IMG/VR virus record: IMGVR_UViG_3300018471_000108
Source: a virus
Taxonomy: Duplodnaviria > Heunggongvirae > Uroviricota > Caudoviricetes
Reading direction: 5' to 3' (one strand)
DNA: 6,554 nt
Shown here: piece by piece, positions 1 to 6,554 of the stretch
Layout of the letters: each line of letters opens with the position of its first letter
Position numbering within the stretch: position 1 is the stretch's first letter
Position numbers and translations under genes: made by a program
The notes under the pieces: model-generated
What the model was told of the DNA's origin: nothing
Database searches by the model: none
The model's input: only the letters and a program-made list of their open reading frames with translations

Positions 1-31
1 ACTGGAGTTCAGACGTGTGCTCTTCCGATCT
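1..31. other. Synthetic Illumina TruSeq-type adapter (read-2 side), not biological sequence
   Basis: 1..31 reads ACTGGAGTTCAGACGTGTGCTCTTCCGATCT, which matches the 3' part of the TruSeq indexed adapter as I recall it. The insert starts at 32. Confidence 0.9.
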
Positions 32-503
32 CAAAGTGCTCAATAAACCAAGTTAAATCATTGATTGCCTTAGCTCCTGAGAATGAAACATCGTCAAGGT
101 AAATAAATTCACGGAATGAACTAACTCTTTGACGTTGTGACAGTCTGGTCACAACGTTGAATTCTTCTACACAATCTTCGCGAAGCAAATCCAAAAACTC
201 AGATTGACTGGTGCCTTGGTTCTGGATATCGAGAAACGCTGCGGTTTGAAAGAACCTTTCATTTTGCTCATCATTGGCGATACTACTAATAACTCTGCGA
301 TAGTCGCTCTCAGAGAAGTATCCAATCCCCATTAATCGGTCCGTTTCCTCTAAGACAAATCGCCTATCGGTTAACTCAAATTGATTAATCCATCGATTAA
401 CATGATCAATGCTCATGCCACCTTGAGGAGGGTTTCGATAGTCATTTAATTTAGTAGCAATTTGCCCCATAAGATCACGATCTGTAACATTGCTATAACA
501 CAT
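32..503 (-). CDS. Hypothetical protein, N-terminal ~157 aa only; C-terminus lies beyond the insert boundary. Accessory gene immediately downstream of P (ren/nin slot).
   Basis: ATG at 501..503 (minus) preceded by AGGA 7 nt upstream. The frame stays open until it runs into the adapter, so the stop at 9..11 and the last ~8 residues of the track ORF are adapter-derived. AT-rich (~38% GC on a sampled stretch) compared with the adjacent replication genes. No family recognised by eye. Confidence 0.6.
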
Positions 504-706
504 ATAGATTCCTGTTCATGCATTGATACGAAAGGGTCAGAATACTCTTAAAAAAATTTGGTGAAAGCCTGAAAAGTCATAATGTTAACATGTATCACAA
601 ATTGTTATTTTTCTCAGTATCTGAGACGTAAACTGAATCCAAGACCACTAATCTGGCTCAAAAAATTTAGAAAGTTTCTCATAATGAATACTTGCCTCTT
701 TGCCCG

Positions 707-1408
707 TCATACACTTGCTCCTTTCAGCCCAAACTTAGCTTTGATTTCTGCGATCTTCGCCAGAGCCTGTGCACGATTTAGAGGTCTACCGCCCATAACA
801 GGAAGTTGTTTTACTGGTTCAGGTATCGTCTCACCACGGTTAATTCGCGCTGTCATATAGGTCAGTTCATCGGCAGCCTTGCGCCGTAATTCCGCATCAG
901 TAAGCGCATTGGCCCGCATGTTCTGGTACAGGTTGGTAACCAGCCAGTAGTGCGCGTTTGATTTCCATGGATAAGACTCTGCGTCCGGATACAGGCCACG
1001 CTTCCGGCAATACTCGTAAACCATATCAACCAGCTCGCTGACGTTTGGCAGCCCGGCGTTAACAGATGCTTCTTCCCGGCACCAGGCGACAAACTGCCCG
1101 GGTGATGGCAGGAATGGTCGATTCTGCCGACGGGCTACGCGCATTCCTGCGTTAACCTGTTCCATTGTGGTGATCCCGTTTTCCCGGAAAGCCAGAACCC
1201 ACTGGCGGCGGATTTCGTTCAGTTCGTTCTGATCCCGGTTAGCCAGGCTCGCAGGGAAAGTTGCCAGTAACTGGCTGAACACACCGTTGATGATCTGCGC
1301 TACCTGCTGTACCTGCGGCTTTTCGTCGTACTGTTCCGGCATATTGTTGGCGATCCGGCGCATCTGCTCACGGTCAAAGTTAACCATCTGTGCGGCGATG
1401 TTTTTCAT
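707..1408 (-). CDS. P: Lambda-type replication protein P (DnaB helicase loader)
   Basis: 233 aa translation (MKNIAAQMVNFDREQMRRIANNMPEQYDEKPQ...AKIAEIKAKFGLKGASV) is near-identical over its full length to phage lambda P as I recall it. The start ATG overlaps the O stop (ATGA at 1405..1408), as in lambda. GGTGG Shine-Dalgarno 5 nt upstream. Confidence 0.93.
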   Translation of the reverse strand: MKNIAAQMVNFDREQMRRIANNMPEQYDEKPQVQQVAQIINGVFSQLLATFPASLANRDQNELNEIRRQWVLAFRENGITTMEQVNAGMRVARRQNRPFLPSPGQFVAWCREEASVNAGLPNVSELVDMVYEYCRKRGLYPDAESYPWKSNAHYWLVTNLYQNMRANALTDAELRRKAADELTYMTARINRGETIPEPVKQLPVMGGRPLNRAQALAKIAEIKAKFGLKGASV

Positions 1409-2334
1409 AAATCCACCCCGTAAATCCAGTCAGTGTTCGTCAGGTCGAGTTTTGGTTTGCCGGCTGTCACGCCAGCCTGTTGCTTGTTTCGGTTGATTTC
1501 GAGCTGGGTCCACTTGTCGCGGAGTTTGGCCGGACTCAGCACGTTACCGGACCAGAAGTTGTCCTGGCATGCCCAGCGGAACAGCACGCACATGTCGCGG
1601 TGGTTACGTCCGTCACGTTCACGCATCAGGCGGATATCGTTAGCCCACCCTGCAAAATTCGGTTTTCTGGCTGATGGCGCGATGGTCTTCACCATGTCAA
1701 ACATCCACTCTGCGGCGGTCAGGTCTTCTGCTGTCCCCCACTTGCTGCCGCTCTGAATTGCAGCATCTGGTTTCTCCACAGGAAGATCGTTTTCTGGTTG
1801 GTCAGAGGATTCGCCAGAATTCTCGGACGAAAAAGGTTTTATATTGTCTTTTGTTAGTTTGTCTTTTGTGTTTACCTGATTCGGGTAAGTGCCTTTACCT
1901 GATTTGGGTAAACTTTTCTTACCTGATTCAGGTAAATTTACCTCTTTCAGGTAAACTTTATTTTTCTTACCTGATTCGGGTAATGTTGACCATTCACTGA
2001 CCACATTATTAATGCCGATATTCCGCCCGCTCTGAATAAAAATCCCACGCTTTACCAGAACACTTTTTGCAGCAGAACACTTGTGCGGCAATATCCCGGT
2101 CAACTCGGAAAGTTGCTCGTTGCTCACCCAATCCAGTTTTTTATTAAAGCCATATGTTTTGCGCATGACAGCCAGGAAGACCAGAAGCTGGTGCTGTGTT
2201 AATCCGGCCAGCATCACAGCTTCCAGCAACTCATTTGCAATGCGCGTATAACCATCATCGAGATCTGCCACACGCGGCTCCTTTTGTGCCACATCCGGCA
2301 CTGGAAAATTGAATATCTCAGCAGTGTTTGCCAT
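1405..2334 (-). CDS. O: Lambda-type replication initiator O: divergent N-terminal iteron-binding domain, lambda-like C-terminal P-interaction domain
   Basis: C-terminal ~110 aa (...WGTAEDLTAAEWMFDMVKTIAPSARKPNFAGWANDIRLMRERDGRNHRDMCVLFRWACQDNFWSGNVLSPAKLRDKWTQLEINRNKQQAGVTAGKPKLDLTNTDWIYGVDL) matches lambda O as recalled. The N-terminal part contains the conserved VADLDDGY motif but is otherwise divergent. Start refined from the track ORF (2424) to ATG 2332..2334 (MANTAEIFNF...), which has a GGGAGG Shine-Dalgarno and matches the N-terminus pattern of lambda O. Ori iterons lie inside the gene. Confidence 0.9.
   Translation of the reverse strand: MANTAEIFNFPVPDVAQKEPRVADLDDGYTRIANELLEAVMLAGLTQHQLLVFLAVMRKTYGFNKKLDWVSNEQLSELTGILPHKCSAAKSVLVKRGIFIQSGRNIGINNVVSEWSTLPESGKKNKVYLKEVNLPESGKKSLPKSGKGTYPNQVNTKDKLTKDNIKPFSSENSGESSDQPENDLPVEKPDAAIQSGSKWGTAEDLTAAEWMFDMVKTIAPSARKPNFAGWANDIRLMRERDGRNHRDMCVLFRWACQDNFWSGNVLSPAKLRDKWTQLEINRNKQQAGVTAGKPKLDLTNTDWIYGVDL
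1828..1870. other. AT-rich segment flanking the iterons (putative DNA-unwinding element of ori)
   Basis: GAAAAAGGTTTTATATTGTCTTTTGTTAGTTTGTCTTTTGTG lies directly beside the iteron array on the side that is downstream in the O reading direction, the same relative position as the lambda ori AT-rich region. Confidence 0.55.
1872..1983. repeat. Replication origin iterons: five ~17-bp inverted-repeat units TTACC-N7-GGTAA inside the O gene
   Basis: Units at 1872..1888 (TTACCTGATTCGGGTAA), 1895..1911 (TTACCTGATTTGGGTAA), 1919..1935 (TTACCTGATTCAGGTAA), 1938..1954 (TTACCTCTTTCAGGTAA) and 1967..1983 (TTACCTGATTCGGGTAA). They fall in the O linker region, the same architecture as lambda ori. Their sequence differs from the lambda iterons. 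Confidence 0.8.
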
Positions 2335-2420
2335 AATTCCTCCCGCAATGAGTGTGTTACGATTTGCACCTGAAAGTCGGTTCTGTTCGCGCAGACCGGC
2401 TTTCGCCATTTCCGAACCTG

Positions 2421-2966
2421 TCATATTGCCCCCAGCATGGTGGTGACCATCGCCATCAGTGGACCAGCCAAATCCGGGTCCACACGAAACATCGACACAA
2501 TGCCTTCACTCATCTCCTTCAGTTTCTGGTGGCGTGGTGCGTTGAGAATGACAGCCTGTTTTGCCTCACTGAGTTCCTTTTCCATTTCAGCCAGCCGAGC
2601 CATGTAGCTATCCTGCTCAACCAGGTGGCCGCGATATTCCAGCGGTAGTACCGCCAGAATTGCCGGGGTCAGTTCACGCACGTTATTTCGGTATTTTTCA
2701 GAATCGAATTTGTTATCGAGGAAGCGGAACAGCTTCTGGCGTGCACGGCTGACATCATCAGGGAAATCGATGGTGCCGCCGCCCTGCTCCCGATACTCAT
2801 TCACAATGAGTGCGGCAACAACATCCTGATTATCTGCAGCCGACCAGGCGCGAACGGCATCACGGATTTTTTCGTGGCCTGGCGCCTGTTTTGTTTGAGA
2901 ACGATTTATCACCGCAGTCGGGCTAAATCCGCTAGTCTGTTGGTATGTAAGTGGTTGCATAGTCAT
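2421..2966 (-). CDS. CII-like regulator of the YdaT family (functional position of lambda cII)
   Basis: 181 aa ORF with ATG at 2964..2966 (AAGG upstream), lying between the cro-like gene and O. It contains segments (..EYREQGGG.., ..LTPAILAVLPLEYR..) resembling what I recall of E. coli Rac YdaT. The family assignment is from memory, not from a search. Confidence 0.55.
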   Translation of the reverse strand: MTMQPLTYQQTSGFSPTAVINRSQTKQAPGHEKIRDAVRAWSAADNQDVVAALIVNEYREQGGGTIDFPDDVSRARQKLFRFLDNKFDSEKYRNNVRELTPAILAVLPLEYRGHLVEQDSYMARLAEMEKELSEAKQAVILNAPRHQKLKEMSEGIVSMFRVDPDLAGPLMAMVTTMLGAI

Positions 2967-2990
2967 TGCCTTATCAGTTAACGCCGCAGT

Positions 2991-3218
2991 TTAGGCGGCA
3001 GAATTACTCGCGTTAAACAATGGTGCGAGGTCGGGACGAATATCTGCTGGTTTAATCTTTCCACCAGTGGCTGAGACAATTTTCATTACATAGCGGGCAT
3101 CAATTCCGCCACCGTGTAGCCAACGCCAAACTGTGGGTTGGGCTACACCGCATAGATCTGCCAGTCGTTTTTGACTACCTGTAATACTGATTGCGAGTTG
3201 AATGGTTTGATTTGTCAT
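2991..3218 (-). CDS. cro: Cro-like HTH regulator (YdaS family)
   Basis: 75 aa from ATG 3216..3218 (the track ORF begins at a TTG two codons upstream). AGGA Shine-Dalgarno 9 nt upstream. HTH-like segment GSQKRLADLCGVAQPTVWRW and a YdaS-like ...ATGGKIKPADIRPD tail. Divergent from the CI-like gene. Confidence 0.75.
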   Translation of the reverse strand: MTNQTIQLAISITGSQKRLADLCGVAQPTVWRWLHGGGIDARYVMKIVSATGGKIKPADIRPDLAPLFNASNSAA

Positions 3219-3328
3219 TATCAATTCCTATTGGTATTGCAATGAATGAATAATAGCAATGCGTATTAATCCAAGCAATAGCAAAACGTGTTTTGACCAT
3301 CAATACGCAAGCGTATAAATTAAAACTT
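3219..3328. promoter_or_regulatory. OR-like divergent promoter/operator region between cro and cI
   Basis: Minus-strand PR-like promoter: -35 TTGCTT (plus 3273..3278), 17-nt spacer, -10 TATTAT (plus 3250..3255). Plus-strand PRM-like promoter: -35 TTGACC 3293..3298, 16-nt spacer, -10 ATAAAT 3315..3320, placing the transcription start at or near the cI ATG (3329). Repeated AATAGCAA(T) motifs at 3252..3260 and 3277..3284 overlap the PR elements. Inverted repeat ATACGC-AA-GCGTAT at 3303..3316 sits in the PRM spacer. Confidence 0.6.
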
Positions 3329-4021
3329 ATGAAAAAAGAAACTCTTGCTGATCGCTTAAACCTAGCGATGGAACAATCTGGAATGTCTCAAGGCGCTCTT
3401 GCAAAGGCGTCTGGCGTAGCTCAACCCACAATCTGGAGACTGACAAGCGGCAACGCGCGCGGCTCAACAAAAATTGTTGAAATAGCTAATGCATTGGGTG
3501 TTCGAACAGAATGGCTCTCATCAGGCATAGGCCCGATGAGAAATGACGGTCAACAATCAGGGAAGCCTGCTGTCAGCCATTCAAAATACTTCAAGATTGA
3601 CGTTCTTGATATAGAAGTCAGTGCCGGGCCGGGTGTAATCAACCGTGAGTTTGTAGAAGTTCTACGCTCGGTTGAGTACTCGTTTGACGATGCTCGTCAC
3701 ATGTTCGATGGCAGGAAGGCGGAAAATATCCGCATCATTAACGTGCGTGGTGACAGCATGTCAGGAACGATCGAACCAGGTGATCTGCTGTTCGTTGATA
3801 TCACAGTTAAATCTTTCGACGGTGATGGTATCTATGCGTTTCTGTACGACGACACAGCCCATGTAAAGCGCCTGCAAATGATGAAGGATAAGCTGCTGGT
3901 CATCTCTGATAACAAAAGCTACTCACCGTGGGACCCGATCGAGAAAGACGAGATGAACCGGGTGTTCATCTTCGGTAAGGTTATTGGGAGCATGCCGCAG
4001 ACATATAGGAAGCATGGTTAA
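3329..4021 (+). CDS. cI: CI-like prophage repressor (N-terminal HTH, C-terminal S24 LexA-like autopeptidase)
   Basis: HTH segment MSQGALAKASGVAQPTIWRL. C-terminal VRGDSMSGTIEPGDLLFVD (Ser nucleophile in the GDSM motif) and HVKRLQ (Lys) form the S24 Ser-Lys dyad. Start placed at ATG 3329 rather than the track TTG at 3293, because that TTG is the -35 of the predicted PRM-like promoter and the ATG has no Shine-Dalgarno, consistent with a leaderless transcript as in lambda cI. Confidence 0.88.
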   Translation: MKKETLADRLNLAMEQSGMSQGALAKASGVAQPTIWRLTSGNARGSTKIVEIANALGVRTEWLSSGIGPMRNDGQQSGKPAVSHSKYFKIDVLDIEVSAGPGVINREFVEVLRSVEYSFDDARHMFDGRKAENIRIINVRGDSMSGTIEPGDLLFVDITVKSFDGDGIYAFLYDDTAHVKRLQMMKDKLLVISDNKSYSPWDPIEKDEMNRVFIFGKVIGSMPQTYRKHG

Positions 4022-4032
4022 AGTGAGGCTAA

Positions 4033-4069
4033 AAAACAGTTACAGCAATAGGCCTGTTGTTTTTCTTTA
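4033..4069 (+). terminator. Weak hairpin plus T-run after cI (possible leaky attenuator)
   Basis: AAAACAG (4033..4039) can pair imperfectly with CTGTT(G)TTT (4054..4062), followed by TTTTCTTT. The stem is AT-rich and imperfect, so read-through into the downstream cassette is plausible. Confidence 0.25.
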
Positions 4070-4143
4070 AACACGCAGTGTTAAACCGCTCTTTGAGATG
4101 CGGAGTAATGAGATGGAAGACTTGAATCACATAAGGGTTAGTG

Positions 4144-4893
4144 ATGGAGTGCGTAGCGAGCAGCAATAGTGCAATACCTAATGTCGTTGAAGTAATACGT
4201 CGCATCAATGAAGGTTCCACTCAGCCATTTCTTTGCAAATGTGATGATGGGCAGTTGTATGTTTTGAAGTCAAAACCATCAATGCCCCCGAAAAATCTCT
4301 TAGCTGAGTTCATTTCGGCGTGTTTGGCTAATGATATCGGCCTTCCTTTACCTGACTTTAAAATCGTATTTGTGCCAGAGGAACTTATAGAGTACTCACC
4401 TGATCTGCAGCAACAAATTTGTACAGGATATGCCTTTGCTTCATTGTTCATTGACGGTGCAATAGCGTTAACGTTTACGCAGTCAAGAAACGAAACGATC
4501 ATCCCAGTCGAACAGCAAAAATTAATCTATGTTTTTGATAAATGGATATTAAATGCAGACAGAACGCTTACTGACAAAGGTGGAAACGTTAACATCCTTT
4601 ATGACATCAGTAACGATAAGTATTATCTGATTGACCATAATCTCTCATTTGATCAGAATGCTGGACCTGAAGATTTTTCTGTGCACGTGTACGGCCCTGG
4701 TAACCGCAAATGGCAATATGATTTAGTGGATCGCGTAGAGTACCGCCAGAGGGTCGTTAACAGTTTACACAAGCTTCCTGCTATCCTTGACGAAATTCCA
4801 GAAGAGTGGATAGTAGATGAGGAGTTTTTACCTTTTGTCTGCACTACGCTAGACAAAGGTGATTGTGATGAATTTTGGAGCGCAATAGAATGA
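4144..4893 (+). CDS. Short HipA-like kinase-fold protein (accessory, rexA-equivalent position)
   Basis: 249 aa from ATG 4144 (AAGGG Shine-Dalgarno 4133..4137, 6-nt spacer; the track ORF begins at a GTG one codon upstream). The segment VFDKWILNADRTLTDKGGNVNIL...YYLIDHNLSFD resembles the HipA/PI3-4 kinase-type catalytic loop (HipA ...LIGNTDxHxKN...) followed by a D-x-N metal-binding element. YVLKSKP is a candidate ATP-binding lysine. Only ~250 aa, so it lacks the HipA N-terminal domains. AT-rich codon usage. Confidence 0.6.
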   Translation: MECVASSNSAIPNVVEVIRRINEGSTQPFLCKCDDGQLYVLKSKPSMPPKNLLAEFISACLANDIGLPLPDFKIVFVPEELIEYSPDLQQQICTGYAFASLFIDGAIALTFTQSRNETIIPVEQQKLIYVFDKWILNADRTLTDKGGNVNILYDISNDKYYLIDHNLSFDQNAGPEDFSVHVYGPGNRKWQYDLVDRVEYRQRVVNSLHKLPAILDEIPEEWIVDEEFLPFVCTTLDKGDCDEFWSAIE

Positions 4894-5717
4894 CAACTCC
4901 ATGCCTATATAGCATCGTTCGCTATGCGCCTTATGCGGAGACTGAAGAGTTCGCAAACATAGGCGTACTTCTGTGCGCGCCAAAAGAAAATTACTTTGAT
5001 TTCCAGCTCACAAAGCGAAATGACTCTCGTGTAAAGAATTTTTTCCATGATGATTGTATTTTCCCTGTAGCAAAAGACTCAATACAAAGAGAACTACAGT
5101 TCGCAAAAATGCATGCGACCCAGATTGTTGGACATCAACAACTTGCACAATTCTTCAGATATTTTACAAACAAAAAAGAATCAATTTTTCAGTTCAGTTC
5201 TACGAGAGTGATTCTCAGCGAAAACCCAAAAGAAGAGCTGGCCCGCATTTACAATAAATATGTAAACCACTCTGACTACACAAAAGAGCGCCGTGAAGAT
5301 GTTCTAGCCAGAGAGCTAAAACGAAGTATCGATAGAATAGATGGATTGAAGAACGTCTTCAAACAAGCAACCATTGATGGGTATTTCGCAAAGTTCTCAA
5401 TGCCATTGGTCGCCAAGAAGCATGACAGGATCCAATGTGCCATCAAACCTCTGGCATTCACTCAAGCTGAACCAGGAAAAATGATGGAGCATAGTGATAC
5501 TTGGGTGATGAGAATAACTCGAGCAGCAGAAGAAAACCTGCTTTCACTTGATGACATTTTATTCACAATTGAAACTCCTGAATCACCAAACTCAGGCCAA
5601 AGCAAAGTTATTGACATCATAAAGAGAACTATGGATGCTAAGAAAATAAATCATATACCTGCATCCAACCACAAAGAAACTATTGATTTTGCAAAAAAAA
5701 TACTTCCCCAAGTTTAA
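4890..5717 (+). CDS. DUF3037-like protein with C-terminal extension (accessory, rexB-equivalent position)
   Basis: 275 aa from ATG 4890, which overlaps the upstream stop as ATGA (4890..4893). GGAG 9 nt upstream. The N-terminus TPCLYSIVRYAPYAETEEFANIGVLL matches the DUF3037 signature as I recall it (YS..RY.P....EF.N.GV.L). About 140 extra C-terminal residues have no recognised domain. The track ORF start at 4875 is a TTG. Confidence 0.55.
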   Translation: MTTPCLYSIVRYAPYAETEEFANIGVLLCAPKENYFDFQLTKRNDSRVKNFFHDDCIFPVAKDSIQRELQFAKMHATQIVGHQQLAQFFRYFTNKKESIFQFSSTRVILSENPKEELARIYNKYVNHSDYTKERREDVLARELKRSIDRIDGLKNVFKQATIDGYFAKFSMPLVAKKHDRIQCAIKPLAFTQAEPGKMMEHSDTWVMRITRAAEENLLSLDDILFTIETPESPNSGQSKVIDIIKRTMDAKKINHIPASNHKETIDFAKKILPQV

Positions 5718-5751
5718 AATTTATTTTTGTATGTGATATTCCTTATTAATA

Positions 5752-5779
5752 ACCCGGCCACCGTGCCGGGTTTTCTTTT
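5752..5779 (+). terminator. Rho-independent terminator closing the cI-cassette operon
   Basis: ACCCGGC (5752..5758), loop CACCGT, GCCGGGT (5765..5771): a perfect 7-bp GC-rich stem followed by TTTTCTTTT. Confidence 0.8.
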
Positions 5780-5919
5780 GCCTCCCCTCATCACACAAAC
5801 CGCTCAAAAAATCACCATAACCTCGCTTCAGTTATCGCTATGCGATGCAAGTCACAAAATTAATTCTTTTTGCTATCAAACATTTAATATCAAAACACAT
5901 CAACTAATAGCAATAAGTA

Positions 5920-5948
5920 TTGATATCACCAATAGCAATAGCTATTAT
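5920..5948 (+). promoter_or_regulatory. PL-like early-left promoter with overlapping operator motifs (OL-like)
   Basis: -35 TTGATA 5920..5925, 17-nt spacer, -10 TATTAT 5943..5948. AATAGCAAT motifs at 5906..5914 and 5931..5939 (the same 9-mer as in the OR region) and the 10-bp palindrome AATAGCTATT at 5937..5946 overlap the promoter. Confidence 0.55.
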
Positions 5949-6225
5949 CACCATATCGCAACAACACAACGATACGGCAACCACCTGATTCACCGTTGCG
6001 ATGACCGCTTAGATCCGCAGCTTGAATTTCAGCAGGCTTCGGGGAGTGCGAGGGATGAAACGGACGCGTGAACGTCGGTGTGACCAGCTGAAATCAACTC
6101 AACATTTCATACCTTAGTCGCTTCAACGAGGCGGCTTAGTTATGGCAACCGGCGGCCATCCACCGCCTGAATACGCGCAGAAGTCTCTATATGTTCAGCA
6201 GCCCAGCTTACGGGCAGGAGTTTTT

Positions 6226-6432
6226 ATGGTTCATCAACATTACGGAACGCAGACCGTTAATCGCGGCGCGGTCATGCCAGGAATGCTGGTCAAACACAAA
6301 GATGGTACCTGGACTGCATCAGCTAATTTACGCGGACGGCTATATCTGCATCGCGGCATCGAGCGCACTTATACCCGTGATTTGCTCGTGGAAGTTTTTC
6401 TCGACGGACGCGGTAACGGCCTGAATCACTAA
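6226..6432 (+). CDS. Hypothetical small protein (first gene of the early-left transcript); alternative start at 6142
   Basis: ATG 6226 is preceded by AGGAG with a 5-nt spacer. The in-frame ATG at 6142 (GAGG 10 nt upstream) would give 96 aa. No arginine-rich N-terminus, so it does not look like a lambda N-type antiterminator. Confidence 0.4.
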   Translation: MVHQHYGTQTVNRGAVMPGMLVKHKDGTWTASANLRGRLYLHRGIERTYTRDLLVEVFLDGRGNGLNH

Positions 6433-6507
6433 TCCCCTTTTCTGTTTTCCTAATCAGCCTGGCATTTCGCTGGCGATATTTTCACAGCCATTTTCAGGAG
6501 TTCAGCC

Positions 6508-6533
6508 ATGAACGCTTATTACATTCAGGATCG
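6508..6533 (+). CDS. 5' end of a gene cut by the insert boundary (MNAYYIQDR...)
   Basis: ATG 6508 with AGGAG 7 nt upstream. Only 8-9 codons fall before the adapter begins. Confidence 0.35.
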
Positions 6534-6554
6534 AGATCGGAAGAGCGTCGTGTA
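6534..6554. other. Synthetic Illumina TruSeq-type adapter (read-through AGATCGGAAGAGCGTCGTGTA), not biological sequence
   Basis: 6534..6554 reads AGATCGGAAGAGCGTCGTGTA, the canonical start of the TruSeq universal adapter read-through as I recall it. Confidence 0.9.

What the first reader, a model, noticed from the sequence alone, without database searches (positions are those of the whole stretch)
4890..5717. DUF3037-like protein with a ~140 aa C-terminal extension, translationally coupled to the kinase
The N-terminal region matches the DUF3037 signature as I recall it, a family with no assigned function. The coupled ATGA junction implies stoichiometric co-expression with the kinase. It could be an antitoxin or regulator, a phage sensor, or a kinase substrate or adaptor. 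The C-terminal half is hydrophilic with no obvious transmembrane segment, unlike RexB.
Basis: inference. Interest (0 to 1): 0.55.

Follow-up and report, generated by a model that had tools for sequence, protein, structure and literature searches.

The report
HipD antitoxin of HipAD phage defence
This gene is real and is read correctly as a DUF3037 protein coupled to a HipA-like kinase, but both proteins are 100% identical to the published, experimentally validated prophage anti-phage system HipAD (DS-6), so it is a known system and not a discovery.

Summary
Window 4890-5717 (+) encodes a 275-aa protein with a Pfam DUF3037 domain (aa 7-125, E 7.6e-24). Its ATG overlaps the TGA of an upstream HipA_2 kinase gene (ATGA at 4890-4893).

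The pair is already known. Both proteins are 100% identical to DS-6A (WP_000389051.1) and DS-6B (WP_000210934.1) of the DefensePredictor study. That two-gene system is validated and was renamed HipAD. In its data table Bas1 plating falls about 5 logs, against 0.9 log with kinase D139A. They are also identical to the 'HipA toxin' and 'HipD antitoxin' of phage PhiR5_1. PADLOC calls the pair PDC-M66.

The module sits between the cI-like repressor and OL/PL, where lambda carries rexAB, and a terminator follows it. It occurs in 284 of 5426 complete E. coli genomes.

Most likely mechanism: HipD binds and neutralises the kinase, and infection releases it. Novelty: already known. Interest: low.

The parts
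4890..5717 (+). hipD (DS-6B), a 275-aa DUF3037 protein and the antitoxin/partner of the kinase
   Evidence: ORF. Pfam DUF3037, E 7.6e-24. PADLOC PDC-M66B, E 3.8e-16, over aa 7-271. PHROG 5137, E 3.5e-126. 100% identical to WP_000210934.1 (DS-6B) and to HipD of PhiR5_1.
4908..5264 (+). N-terminal DUF3037 domain (aa 7-125), with a near-invariant loop P14-x2-E17-T18-E19-E20-F21-x-N23-x-G25
5283..5702 (+). C-terminal conserved domain (aa ~132-271) with alpha-beta-beta-beta-alpha-beta topology. The fold is restriction-endonuclease-like (PD-(D/E)xK) and the canonical catalytic acids are absent.
4144..4893 (+). hipA-like kinase (DS-6A), 249 aa, the toxin/effector. Catalytic Asp139 lies in the motif NADR.
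   Evidence: Pfam HipA_2, E 9.9e-77. PADLOC PDC-M66A. 100% identical to WP_000389051.1. D139A reduces defence from 5.2 to 0.9 log in Table S7 of PMC13092281.
4890..4893 (+). ATGA overlap of the kinase stop codon and the hipD start codon
   Evidence: Sequence. Conserved in L002-L006.
4877..4880 (+). GGAG, a Shine-Dalgarno-like motif 9 nt upstream of the hipD ATG, inside the kinase coding sequence
   Evidence: Sequence.
5751..5780 (+). Intrinsic-terminator-like hairpin plus T-run, 34 nt after the hipD stop. It marks the likely end of the cI-hipA-hipD unit.
   Evidence: Terminator scan: 8-bp stem with 6 GC pairs, then TTCTTTTG.
3329..4021 (+). cI-like S24/HTH repressor directly upstream on the same strand (RefSeq start 3329; an alternative TTG lies at 3293)
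   Evidence: Pfam Peptidase_S24 and HTH_3. RefSeq and GenBank annotation.
3225..3300 (.). OR-like operator region between the cro-like gene and cI, carrying AATAGCAAT-type repeats
   Evidence: Direct repeat D1, 3251-3300 vs 5905-5954, 74% over 50 nt. Sequence.
5905..5954 (+). OL/PL-like region: operator repeats overlapping a promoter-like site (TTGATA, 17 nt, TATTAT at 5920-5948) that points towards kil/gam/bet

Best explanation
Window 4890-5717 encodes HipD, the second protein of the two-gene anti-phage system HipAD (also called DS-6; PADLOC candidate PDC-M66). A lambdoid E. coli prophage carries the system as an accessory module in the slot that rexAB occupies in lambda.

Shown in the literature for the identical proteins: the pair protects E. 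coli from phage Bas1, and protection needs the kinase catalytic Asp139.

Shown for a homologous pair: removing the kinase abolishes defence, and removing the DUF3037 gene is toxic. The logic is therefore that of a toxin-antitoxin pair.

Inferred: HipD is made together with the kinase through the coupled ATGA junction. It binds the kinase directly and holds it inactive in uninfected lysogens. An unidentified infection cue releases or activates the kinase. The kinase then phosphorylates an essential host target; by analogy with HipA and HipT this could be an aminoacyl-tRNA synthetase. The infected cell stops growing and the infection aborts.

HipD has two conserved domains. The N-terminal DUF3037 domain has no confidently known fold. 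The C-terminal domain has a restriction-endonuclease-like fold that has lost the canonical catalytic acids. I infer that it binds something, such as DNA or a phage component, and does not cut.
For: Identity:
- Both proteins are 100% identical to DS-6A and DS-6B, whose sequences are in Table S8 of PMC13092281.
- Both are 100% identical to the 'HipA toxin' and 'HipD antitoxin' of phage PhiR5_1, PV340545.1.
- RefSeq gives the same WP accessions in the prophage.

Function:
- The DefensePredictor text describes DS-6 = HipAD, loss of defence in the kinase mutant, and AF3 ipTM 0.76-0.79 for DS-6A:DS-6B.
- Table S7 of that paper gives Bas1 at 5.18 log for wild type and 0.88 log for D139A.
- In the system next to Retron-Sda1, the kinase deletion loses defence and the DUF3037 deletion is toxic (PMC12548924).

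Family membership: Pfam DUF3037 and HipA_2, PADLOC PDC-M66A/B.

Conserved pairing: the kinase-then-DUF3037 gene order and the ATGA junction hold down to 29-36% identity, in Stutzerimonas (inside a defence island with MmeI, NERD and GmrSD genes) and in Sphingomonas.

Position: the module lies between cI and OL/PL and ends at a terminator. A 49%-identical pair sits in the same slot of another E. coli lambdoid prophage, next to a different S24/HTH repressor protein.

Against: - The primary HipAD paper (Brenes & Laub 2025, Cell Host Microbe) is not in the held library. Its findings on trigger, target and abortive infection could not be read.
- Direct HipD-kinase binding rests on a published AlphaFold3 prediction, not on an experiment I could cite.
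- Antitoxin activity was shown by deletion only for a distant homologue. For this protein it rests on a GenBank annotation.
- Nothing here shows that the ATGA overlap gives stoichiometric expression.
- The kinase target is inferred by analogy only. The kinase shows no significant sequence similarity to E. coli HipA in BLASTP (best E 0.049 over 21 residues) or to any solved structure.
Confidence: 0.85

Rival explanations
1. HipD is mainly the sensor or specificity subunit and not just a passive antitoxin. Its nuclease-like C-domain would recognise phage DNA or a phage protein, and this would switch the bound kinase on. This overlaps with the best explanation and does not exclude it.
Against: No trigger is known. 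No binding to DNA or to a phage protein has been shown. The toxicity of the DUF3037 deletion is explained by simple neutralisation. I found no clear operator-like palindrome upstream of hipA.
Confidence: 0.3
2. HipD acts like HipS of the tripartite HipBST system. In this reading the DUF3037 domain is a structural analogue of N-subdomain 1 of HipA, which the short 249-aa kinase lacks. It would be supplied in trans and would block the active site.
Confidence: 0.15
3. HipD is a substrate or pseudosubstrate of the kinase. The near-invariant Thr18 in the acidic loop ETEEF would be the phospho-acceptor, and phosphorylation would control the complex.
For: T18 is 95% conserved within a near-invariant loop. 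Regulatory phosphorylation of HipA-family kinases and their partners is known from HipA and HipT (my own knowledge).
Against: There are no phosphorylation data. A conserved loop is explained equally well as a binding interface.
Confidence: 0.1
4. HipD is the effector, an active nuclease, and the kinase regulates it.
For: The C-domain has a restriction-endonuclease-like fold.
Against: The canonical PD and (D/E)xK acids are replaced by hydrophobic residues in all 265 aligned homologues. Deleting the DUF3037 gene is toxic and not merely loss-of-function. Kinase D139A reduces defence to 0.9 log.
Confidence: 0.04

Closest known systems
HipAD = DS-6 (Brenes & Laub 2025, Cell Host Microbe; DefensePredictor, Science 2026, PMC13092281)
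   Same: Both proteins are 100% identical. Gene order, ATGA overlap and prophage origin are the same. The window's kinase-hipD segment (4141-5717) is 99.9% identical in DNA to phage PhiR5_1, where the genes are annotated HipA toxin and HipD antitoxin.
   Different: Nothing in the two genes differs. The window only comes from a related prophage whose left end differs: a PRTase-CE gene sits where PhiR5_1 has ren.
PADLOC candidate system PDC-M66, and the HipA-like/DUF3037 pair next to Retron-Sda1 (PMC12548924)
   Same: Same two families in the same order. The PDC-M66B profile covers aa 7-271. The Sda1-linked pair defends on its own, with the kinase needed for defence and the DUF3037 deletion toxic.
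   Different: The match to the PADLOC profiles is moderate (E 1e-15 to 1e-16), so the window pair is a diverged branch of that family. The Sda1 pair sits beside a retron reverse transcriptase, and the C-terminus of its DUF3037 protein was reported to resemble a retron accessory protein.
HipBA type II toxin-antitoxin system (E. coli K-12)
   Same: A HipA-superfamily Ser/Thr kinase acts as a growth-arresting toxin and is neutralised by a co-encoded protein.
   Different: The antitoxin HipB is a small HTH protein encoded upstream. HipD is a 275-aa two-domain protein encoded downstream, and Pfam finds no HTH in it. The kinase is 249 aa against 440 aa and matches PF20613 HipA_2. Its BLASTP similarity to HipA is not significant.
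HipBST tripartite system (E. coli O127, Legionella)
   Different: HipAD has no third HTH component. HipD is nearly three times the size of HipS and carries an extra nuclease-fold domain. No sequence-level relation was found.
Lambda RexAB
   Same: Same genomic slot: downstream of cI, inside the immunity region, before OL/PL and ending at a terminator. Same general role, a prophage-encoded exclusion or abortive-infection module.
   Different: The proteins are unrelated. RexB is a polytopic membrane protein, and HipD has no membrane segment.
NgoMIV/Cfr10I/PspGI-type PD-(D/E)xK restriction endonucleases
   Different: The metal-binding Asp of the 'PD' motif is F or L, and the residue two before the Lys is A, V or I, in all 265 homologues. 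Sequence identity is 7-12%. The domain is very probably not a nuclease.

Membership tests
HipAD / DS-6 defence system | Protein sequences match the validated DS-6A and DS-6B | tested here: met
   Exact string identity of both translations to WP_000389051.1 and WP_000210934.1 from Table S8 of PMC13092281.
HipAD / DS-6 defence system | HipA_2-type kinase gene immediately upstream of a DUF3037 gene on the same strand | tested here: met
   Pfam PF20613 at 4144-4893 and PF11236 at 4890-5717. The 4-nt overlap is in the sequence.
HipAD / DS-6 defence system | Kinase catalytic Asp (D139) present | tested here: met
   Residue 139 is D in the motif ILNADRT.
HipAD / DS-6 defence system | Confers anti-phage defence that depends on the kinase | not testable with these tools
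   Published for the identical proteins: Bas1 at 5.18 log for wild type and 0.88 log for D139A (PMC13092281 Table S7; text).
HipAD / DS-6 defence system | HipD neutralises kinase toxicity (antitoxin) | not testable with these tools
   GenBank annotation 'HipD antitoxin' on the identical protein. Deletion of the DUF3037 gene is toxic in a homologous system (PMC12548924). The primary paper is not held.
Pfam DUF3037 (PF11236) | Score above the family gathering threshold over the full model | tested here: met
   84.6 bits against a cutoff of 22.6, model positions 1-118 of 118.
PADLOC PDC-M66 | Both component profiles match adjacent genes | tested here: met
   PDC-M66A, E 5.8e-15. PDC-M66B, E 3.8e-16, covering 6-271 of 281 profile positions.
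Pfam DUF1829 (PF08862), reported for the DS-6B C-terminal half | Profile HMM match | tested here: not met
   DUF1829 is not among the two families matched by the window protein, nor among the top 25 families listed for the 43 homologues at E<=1. The literature value is HHpred probability 0.78 for aa 163-260. The fold-level result here (nuclease-like) is compatible with it.
PD-(D/E)xK nuclease superfamily (C-domain) | alpha-beta-beta-beta-alpha-beta core fold | tested here: met
PD-(D/E)xK nuclease superfamily (C-domain) | Catalytic D ... (D/E)-x-K motif | tested here: not met
   P172 is followed by F or L (261 of 265), position 184 is A, V or I, and K186 is kept. HipD should not be filed as an active nuclease.
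HipBA (canonical) | HTH antitoxin HipB encoded upstream, and a full-length (~440 aa) HipA with N-terminal subdomains | tested here: not met
   Pfam finds no HTH in HipD. The kinase is 249 aa and shows no significant BLASTP similarity to K-12 HipA.
HipBST (HipS-like antitoxin) | Antitoxin homologous to HipA N-subdomain 1 (Couple_hipA) | tested here: inconclusive
RexAB | RexB-type polytopic membrane protein | tested here: not met
   Highest 19-residue hydropathy mean 0.58, and a soluble alpha/beta model. Only the genomic slot is shared.

The most novel reading that the evidence does not exclude
HipD is a two-part antitoxin-sensor. Its DUF3037 domain would be a remote structural analogue of HipS, that is, of HipA N-subdomain 1, supplied in trans to the truncated kinase so that it blocks the active site. 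Its C-domain would be a catalytically dead NgoMIV/Cfr10I-type restriction-endonuclease fold that reads DNA or a phage factor and decides when the kinase is released. This would link HipAD mechanistically to HipBST and would make HipD an example of a nuclease fold recycled as an immune sensor.
Probability: 0.15. Interest if true: 0.45.

Novelty: already known. Interest (0 to 1): 0.12.

Why it matters
For a genome scan, this finding should be filed as a correctly spotted copy of a published system and not as a lead. It also illustrates that lambdoid prophages use the rexAB slot for interchangeable defence modules. What remains open is mechanistic: how HipD holds the kinase, what the dead nuclease-fold domain binds, what the phage trigger is, and what the kinase phosphorylates. 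Three analyses here add modest pointers for those questions. The two-domain architecture is universal in the family. The catalytic acids of the nuclease fold are absent in every aligned member. The N-domain shows a weak resemblance to HipS.

Tried and rejected
- **Primary HipAD paper.** I tried to read it by PubMed id and by DOI. It is not held. Papers that cite it gave no HipAD details.
- **Literature searches.** 'HipAD' returned mostly unrelated hip-adduction and adiposity papers. 'HipA + HipD + phage' returned none.
- **Solved structures by sequence.** Nothing significant for HipD (profile, best E 0.056) or for the kinase (best E 0.78).
- **NCBIfam.** No family for either protein.
- **Rfam on the whole window.** No hit at E<=1, so no known RNA element in the 5718-6141 gap.
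- **DUF1829 by Pfam HMM.** Not among the families listed for the 43 homologues.
- **HipS/HipA-N homology by hhalign.** Probability 0.3%. I kept this only as a weak fold-level lead.
- **Kinase fusions.** All of the best 150 hits are about 260-355 aa, too short for a kinase fusion. More distant hits are not listed, so rarer fusions cannot be excluded.
- **Operator-like palindrome upstream of hipA** that could indicate HipB-like autoregulation. Only a 10-nt overlapping palindrome at 4046-4059 was found, and nothing is conserved across loci.
- **HipD C-domain versus the neighbouring PRTase-CE protein.** This was prompted by the retron paper. A shared AIKPL(A/G)F motif gave BLASTP E 0.22 and hhalign P 0.0087 with probability 4.6%. 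PRTase-CE is not among the Pfam families listed for the HipD homologues. I treat the match as probably chance.
- **Active-nuclease reading of HipD.** Rejected because the catalytic acids are absent family-wide.

Full report
**Observation**

The ORF is present at exactly the stated coordinates. An ATG at 4890 opens a 275-codon frame that ends at 5717. Pfam DUF3037 (PF11236) matches residues 7-125 over the whole 118-position model, E 7.6e-24, 84.6 bits against a gathering score of 22.6. The upstream ORF at 4144-4893 is a HipA_2 kinase (PF20613, E 9.9e-77). The kinase stop codon and the DUF3037 start codon overlap as ATGA at 4890-4893. A GGAG lies 9 nt upstream of the ATG. About 150 residues follow the Pfam domain. 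They have no membrane segment: the highest 19-residue hydropathy mean is 0.58, and the AF2 model is a soluble alpha/beta domain.

**What it is**

- Megablast against deposited phage genomes found one record, Escherichia phage PhiR5_1 (PV340545.1, host E. coli C). It is 99.9% identical over the two genes, which are annotated there as 'HipA toxin' and 'HipD antitoxin'. Both proteins are identical to the window's.
- The DefensePredictor paper (PMC13092281) describes a validated two-gene system, DS-6, 'renamed HipAD'. It consists of a HipA-related kinase (DS-6A) and a DUF3037+DUF1829 protein (DS-6B). The paper credits independent discovery to Brenes & Laub 2025. Its Table S8 prints the sequences of WP_000389051.1 and WP_000210934.1.
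- A string comparison shows that both are 100% identical to the window's translations. RefSeq assigns the same WP accessions in E. coli prophages.
- In Table S7 of that paper, the system lowers Bas1 plating by 5.18 log, and the kinase D139A mutant lowers it by only 0.88 log.
- PADLOC classifies the pair as candidate system PDC-M66.
- A separate study of a homologous HipA-like/DUF3037 pair next to Retron-Sda1 showed that it defends on its own. The kinase deletion abolishes defence and the DUF3037 deletion is toxic (PMC12548924).
- The finding is therefore a copy of an already described defence system.

**The 'C-terminal extension'**

- The word-indexed search returned 121 homologues. The 120 listed are 260-284 aa, apart from two short entries, and most cover 97-100% of the query. 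They reach down to 26-29% identity in Sphingomonas and Novosphingobium.
- An exhaustive profile search found 2032 cluster representatives at E<=1e-3. The best 150 nearly all match the full profile end to end at 260-300 aa.
- The C-terminal half carries invariant or near-invariant residues: E136, P172, I185-K186-P187, H201, W205 and F267.
- It is thus an integral domain of the family. The apparent extension only reflects where the Pfam model stops.

**Structure**

- AF2 with a 43-sequence alignment gives a confident two-domain model, mean pLDDT 91.1. The linker at 128-130 has low confidence, and pTM is 0.56, so the relative orientation of the domains is uncertain.
- In 265 aligned family members, the residue after P172 is F or L, and the residue two before K186 is A, V or I. 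The canonical metal-binding acids are therefore absent throughout the family. I conclude that this is a degenerate nuclease fold, probably one that binds and does not cut.

**A lead that stayed weak**

**Context**

- The window is the immunity and replication region of a lambdoid E. coli prophage. It holds replication genes P and O, a YdaT-domain gene, a YdaS/Cro-like gene, a divergent S24/HTH cI-like repressor, then hipA and hipD, then kil, with gam, bet and exo beyond the window.
- A 50-nt repeat with AATAGCAAT motifs links the cro/cI intergenic region (3251-3300) to 5905-5954. There it overlaps a promoter-like site, TTGATA-17-TATTAT. These are OR-like and OL/PL-like elements.
- A terminator-like hairpin at 5751-5772 with a T-run follows hipD. 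hipAD therefore occupies the slot that rexAB holds in lambda.
- Its G+C content is 39-41%, against 46-53% for the neighbouring genes, as expected for an acquired accessory module.
- A 49%-identical pair lies in the same slot of a different E. coli lambdoid prophage, next to a different S24/HTH repressor protein and a P22-type N gene.
- In Stutzerimonas the pair sits in a defence island beside MmeI, NERD and GmrSD genes.
- The ATGA junction is conserved in all of these loci.
- The exact module is in 284 of 5426 complete E. coli genomes, always on the chromosome. It is in only 3 of 50,697 deposited phage genomes.

**Mechanism**

- Shown by others for these exact proteins: defence that depends on the kinase catalytic Asp.
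- Shown for a homologue: toxin-antitoxin logic.
- Predicted by others: a DS-6A:DS-6B complex (AF3 ipTM 0.76-0.79) and a weaker DNA contact (0.67).
- Inferred here: HipD is co-translated with the kinase and holds it inactive. Infection releases the kinase, which phosphorylates an essential host factor and aborts the infection. The dead nuclease-fold domain is the likely ligand or DNA-binding part, acting either as a sensor or in autoregulation.
- The rival readings are sensor subunit, HipS-like split kinase, kinase substrate through the conserved Thr18, and active nuclease. Each is listed with its evidence. The active-nuclease reading is effectively excluded by the missing catalytic residues and by the published genetics.

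**Verdict**

The system is already published and named, and the 'extension' is the normal architecture of the family. Novelty: already known. Interest: low. What remains of interest is mechanistic detail about HipD's two domains.

Noticed in passing
window 1-30 and 6534-6554: Both ends of the window are Illumina TruSeq adapter sequence (ACTGGAGTTCAGACGTGTGCTCTTCCGATCT at the start, AGATCGGAAGAGCGTCGTGTA at the end). The best E. coli genomes match only 31-6533. The contig ends are therefore library artefacts, and the stop codon of ORF 9-503(-) lies inside adapter sequence.
   Followed up: yes
window 9-503 (-); full gene in L009:2954-3973 (-), with a neighbour at L009:2340-2951 (-): The left-end ORF is the N-terminal half of a 338-aa PRTase-CE protein (PF24390; E 1.4e-17 in the window, 5.8e-39 for the full-length protein). 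It also gives a weak PADLOC PRTase_III-A hit. In strain 268.2 a NADAR-domain protein follows it. The pair sits downstream of P, where PhiR5_1 and strain AR_452 carry ren. It looks like a second candidate defence module in a different variable slot of the same prophage.
   Followed up: partly
window 5439-5462 (HipD aa 184-191) vs L009 PRTase-CE protein aa 279-286: The most conserved HipD C-domain motif, AIKPLAFT, recurs as AIKPLGFS in the neighbouring PRTase-CE protein. BLASTP E is 0.22, and hhalign P is 0.0087 with probability 4.6%. PRTase-CE is not among the Pfam families listed for the HipD homologues. This is probably chance. It is recorded because the retron paper also reported similarity between the C-terminus of a DUF3037 protein and a type III-A1 retron accessory protein.
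   Followed up: partly
window 5718-6141: A 424-nt gap lies between hipD and kil. It contains the terminator, the OL/PL-like repeats and about 190 nt of leader, but no N-like antiterminator gene. Rfam finds no known RNA there. ORF 5727-6071 has no Pfam family and spans the terminator and the promoter, so it is probably not a gene. How early leftward transcription is antiterminated in this phage is unclear.
   Followed up: partly
window 2421-2966 (-) and 2991-3224 (-): The gene annotated 'cII' in PhiR5_1 is a 181-aa YdaT_toxin-domain protein (PF06254, E 2.4e-29). The 'cro' is a YdaS-type HTH protein (PF15943). The immunity module is therefore Rac-like and not lambda-like.
   Followed up: partly
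window 6142-6432 (+): The start of kil is annotated inconsistently: 6142 (96 aa) in the phage record against 6226 (68 aa, 'phage encoded cell division inhibitor') in RefSeq. The long form has no Pfam hit.
   Followed up: no
window 3126-3149 and 3413-3436: A 24-nt inverted repeat, 83% complementary, links the cro-like and cI genes. It lies in their HTH-coding regions and probably reflects similar helix-turn-helix sequences encoded on opposite strands.
   Followed up: no
L002:778-4242 and 8270-10810 (Stutzerimonas contig): A 36%-identical HipA_2/DUF3037 pair begins 19 nt after an MmeI-type restriction-modification gene and lies near NERD, GmrSD and AAA_15/DUF3696 genes. This is a defence-island context and not a prophage one.
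   Followed up: no
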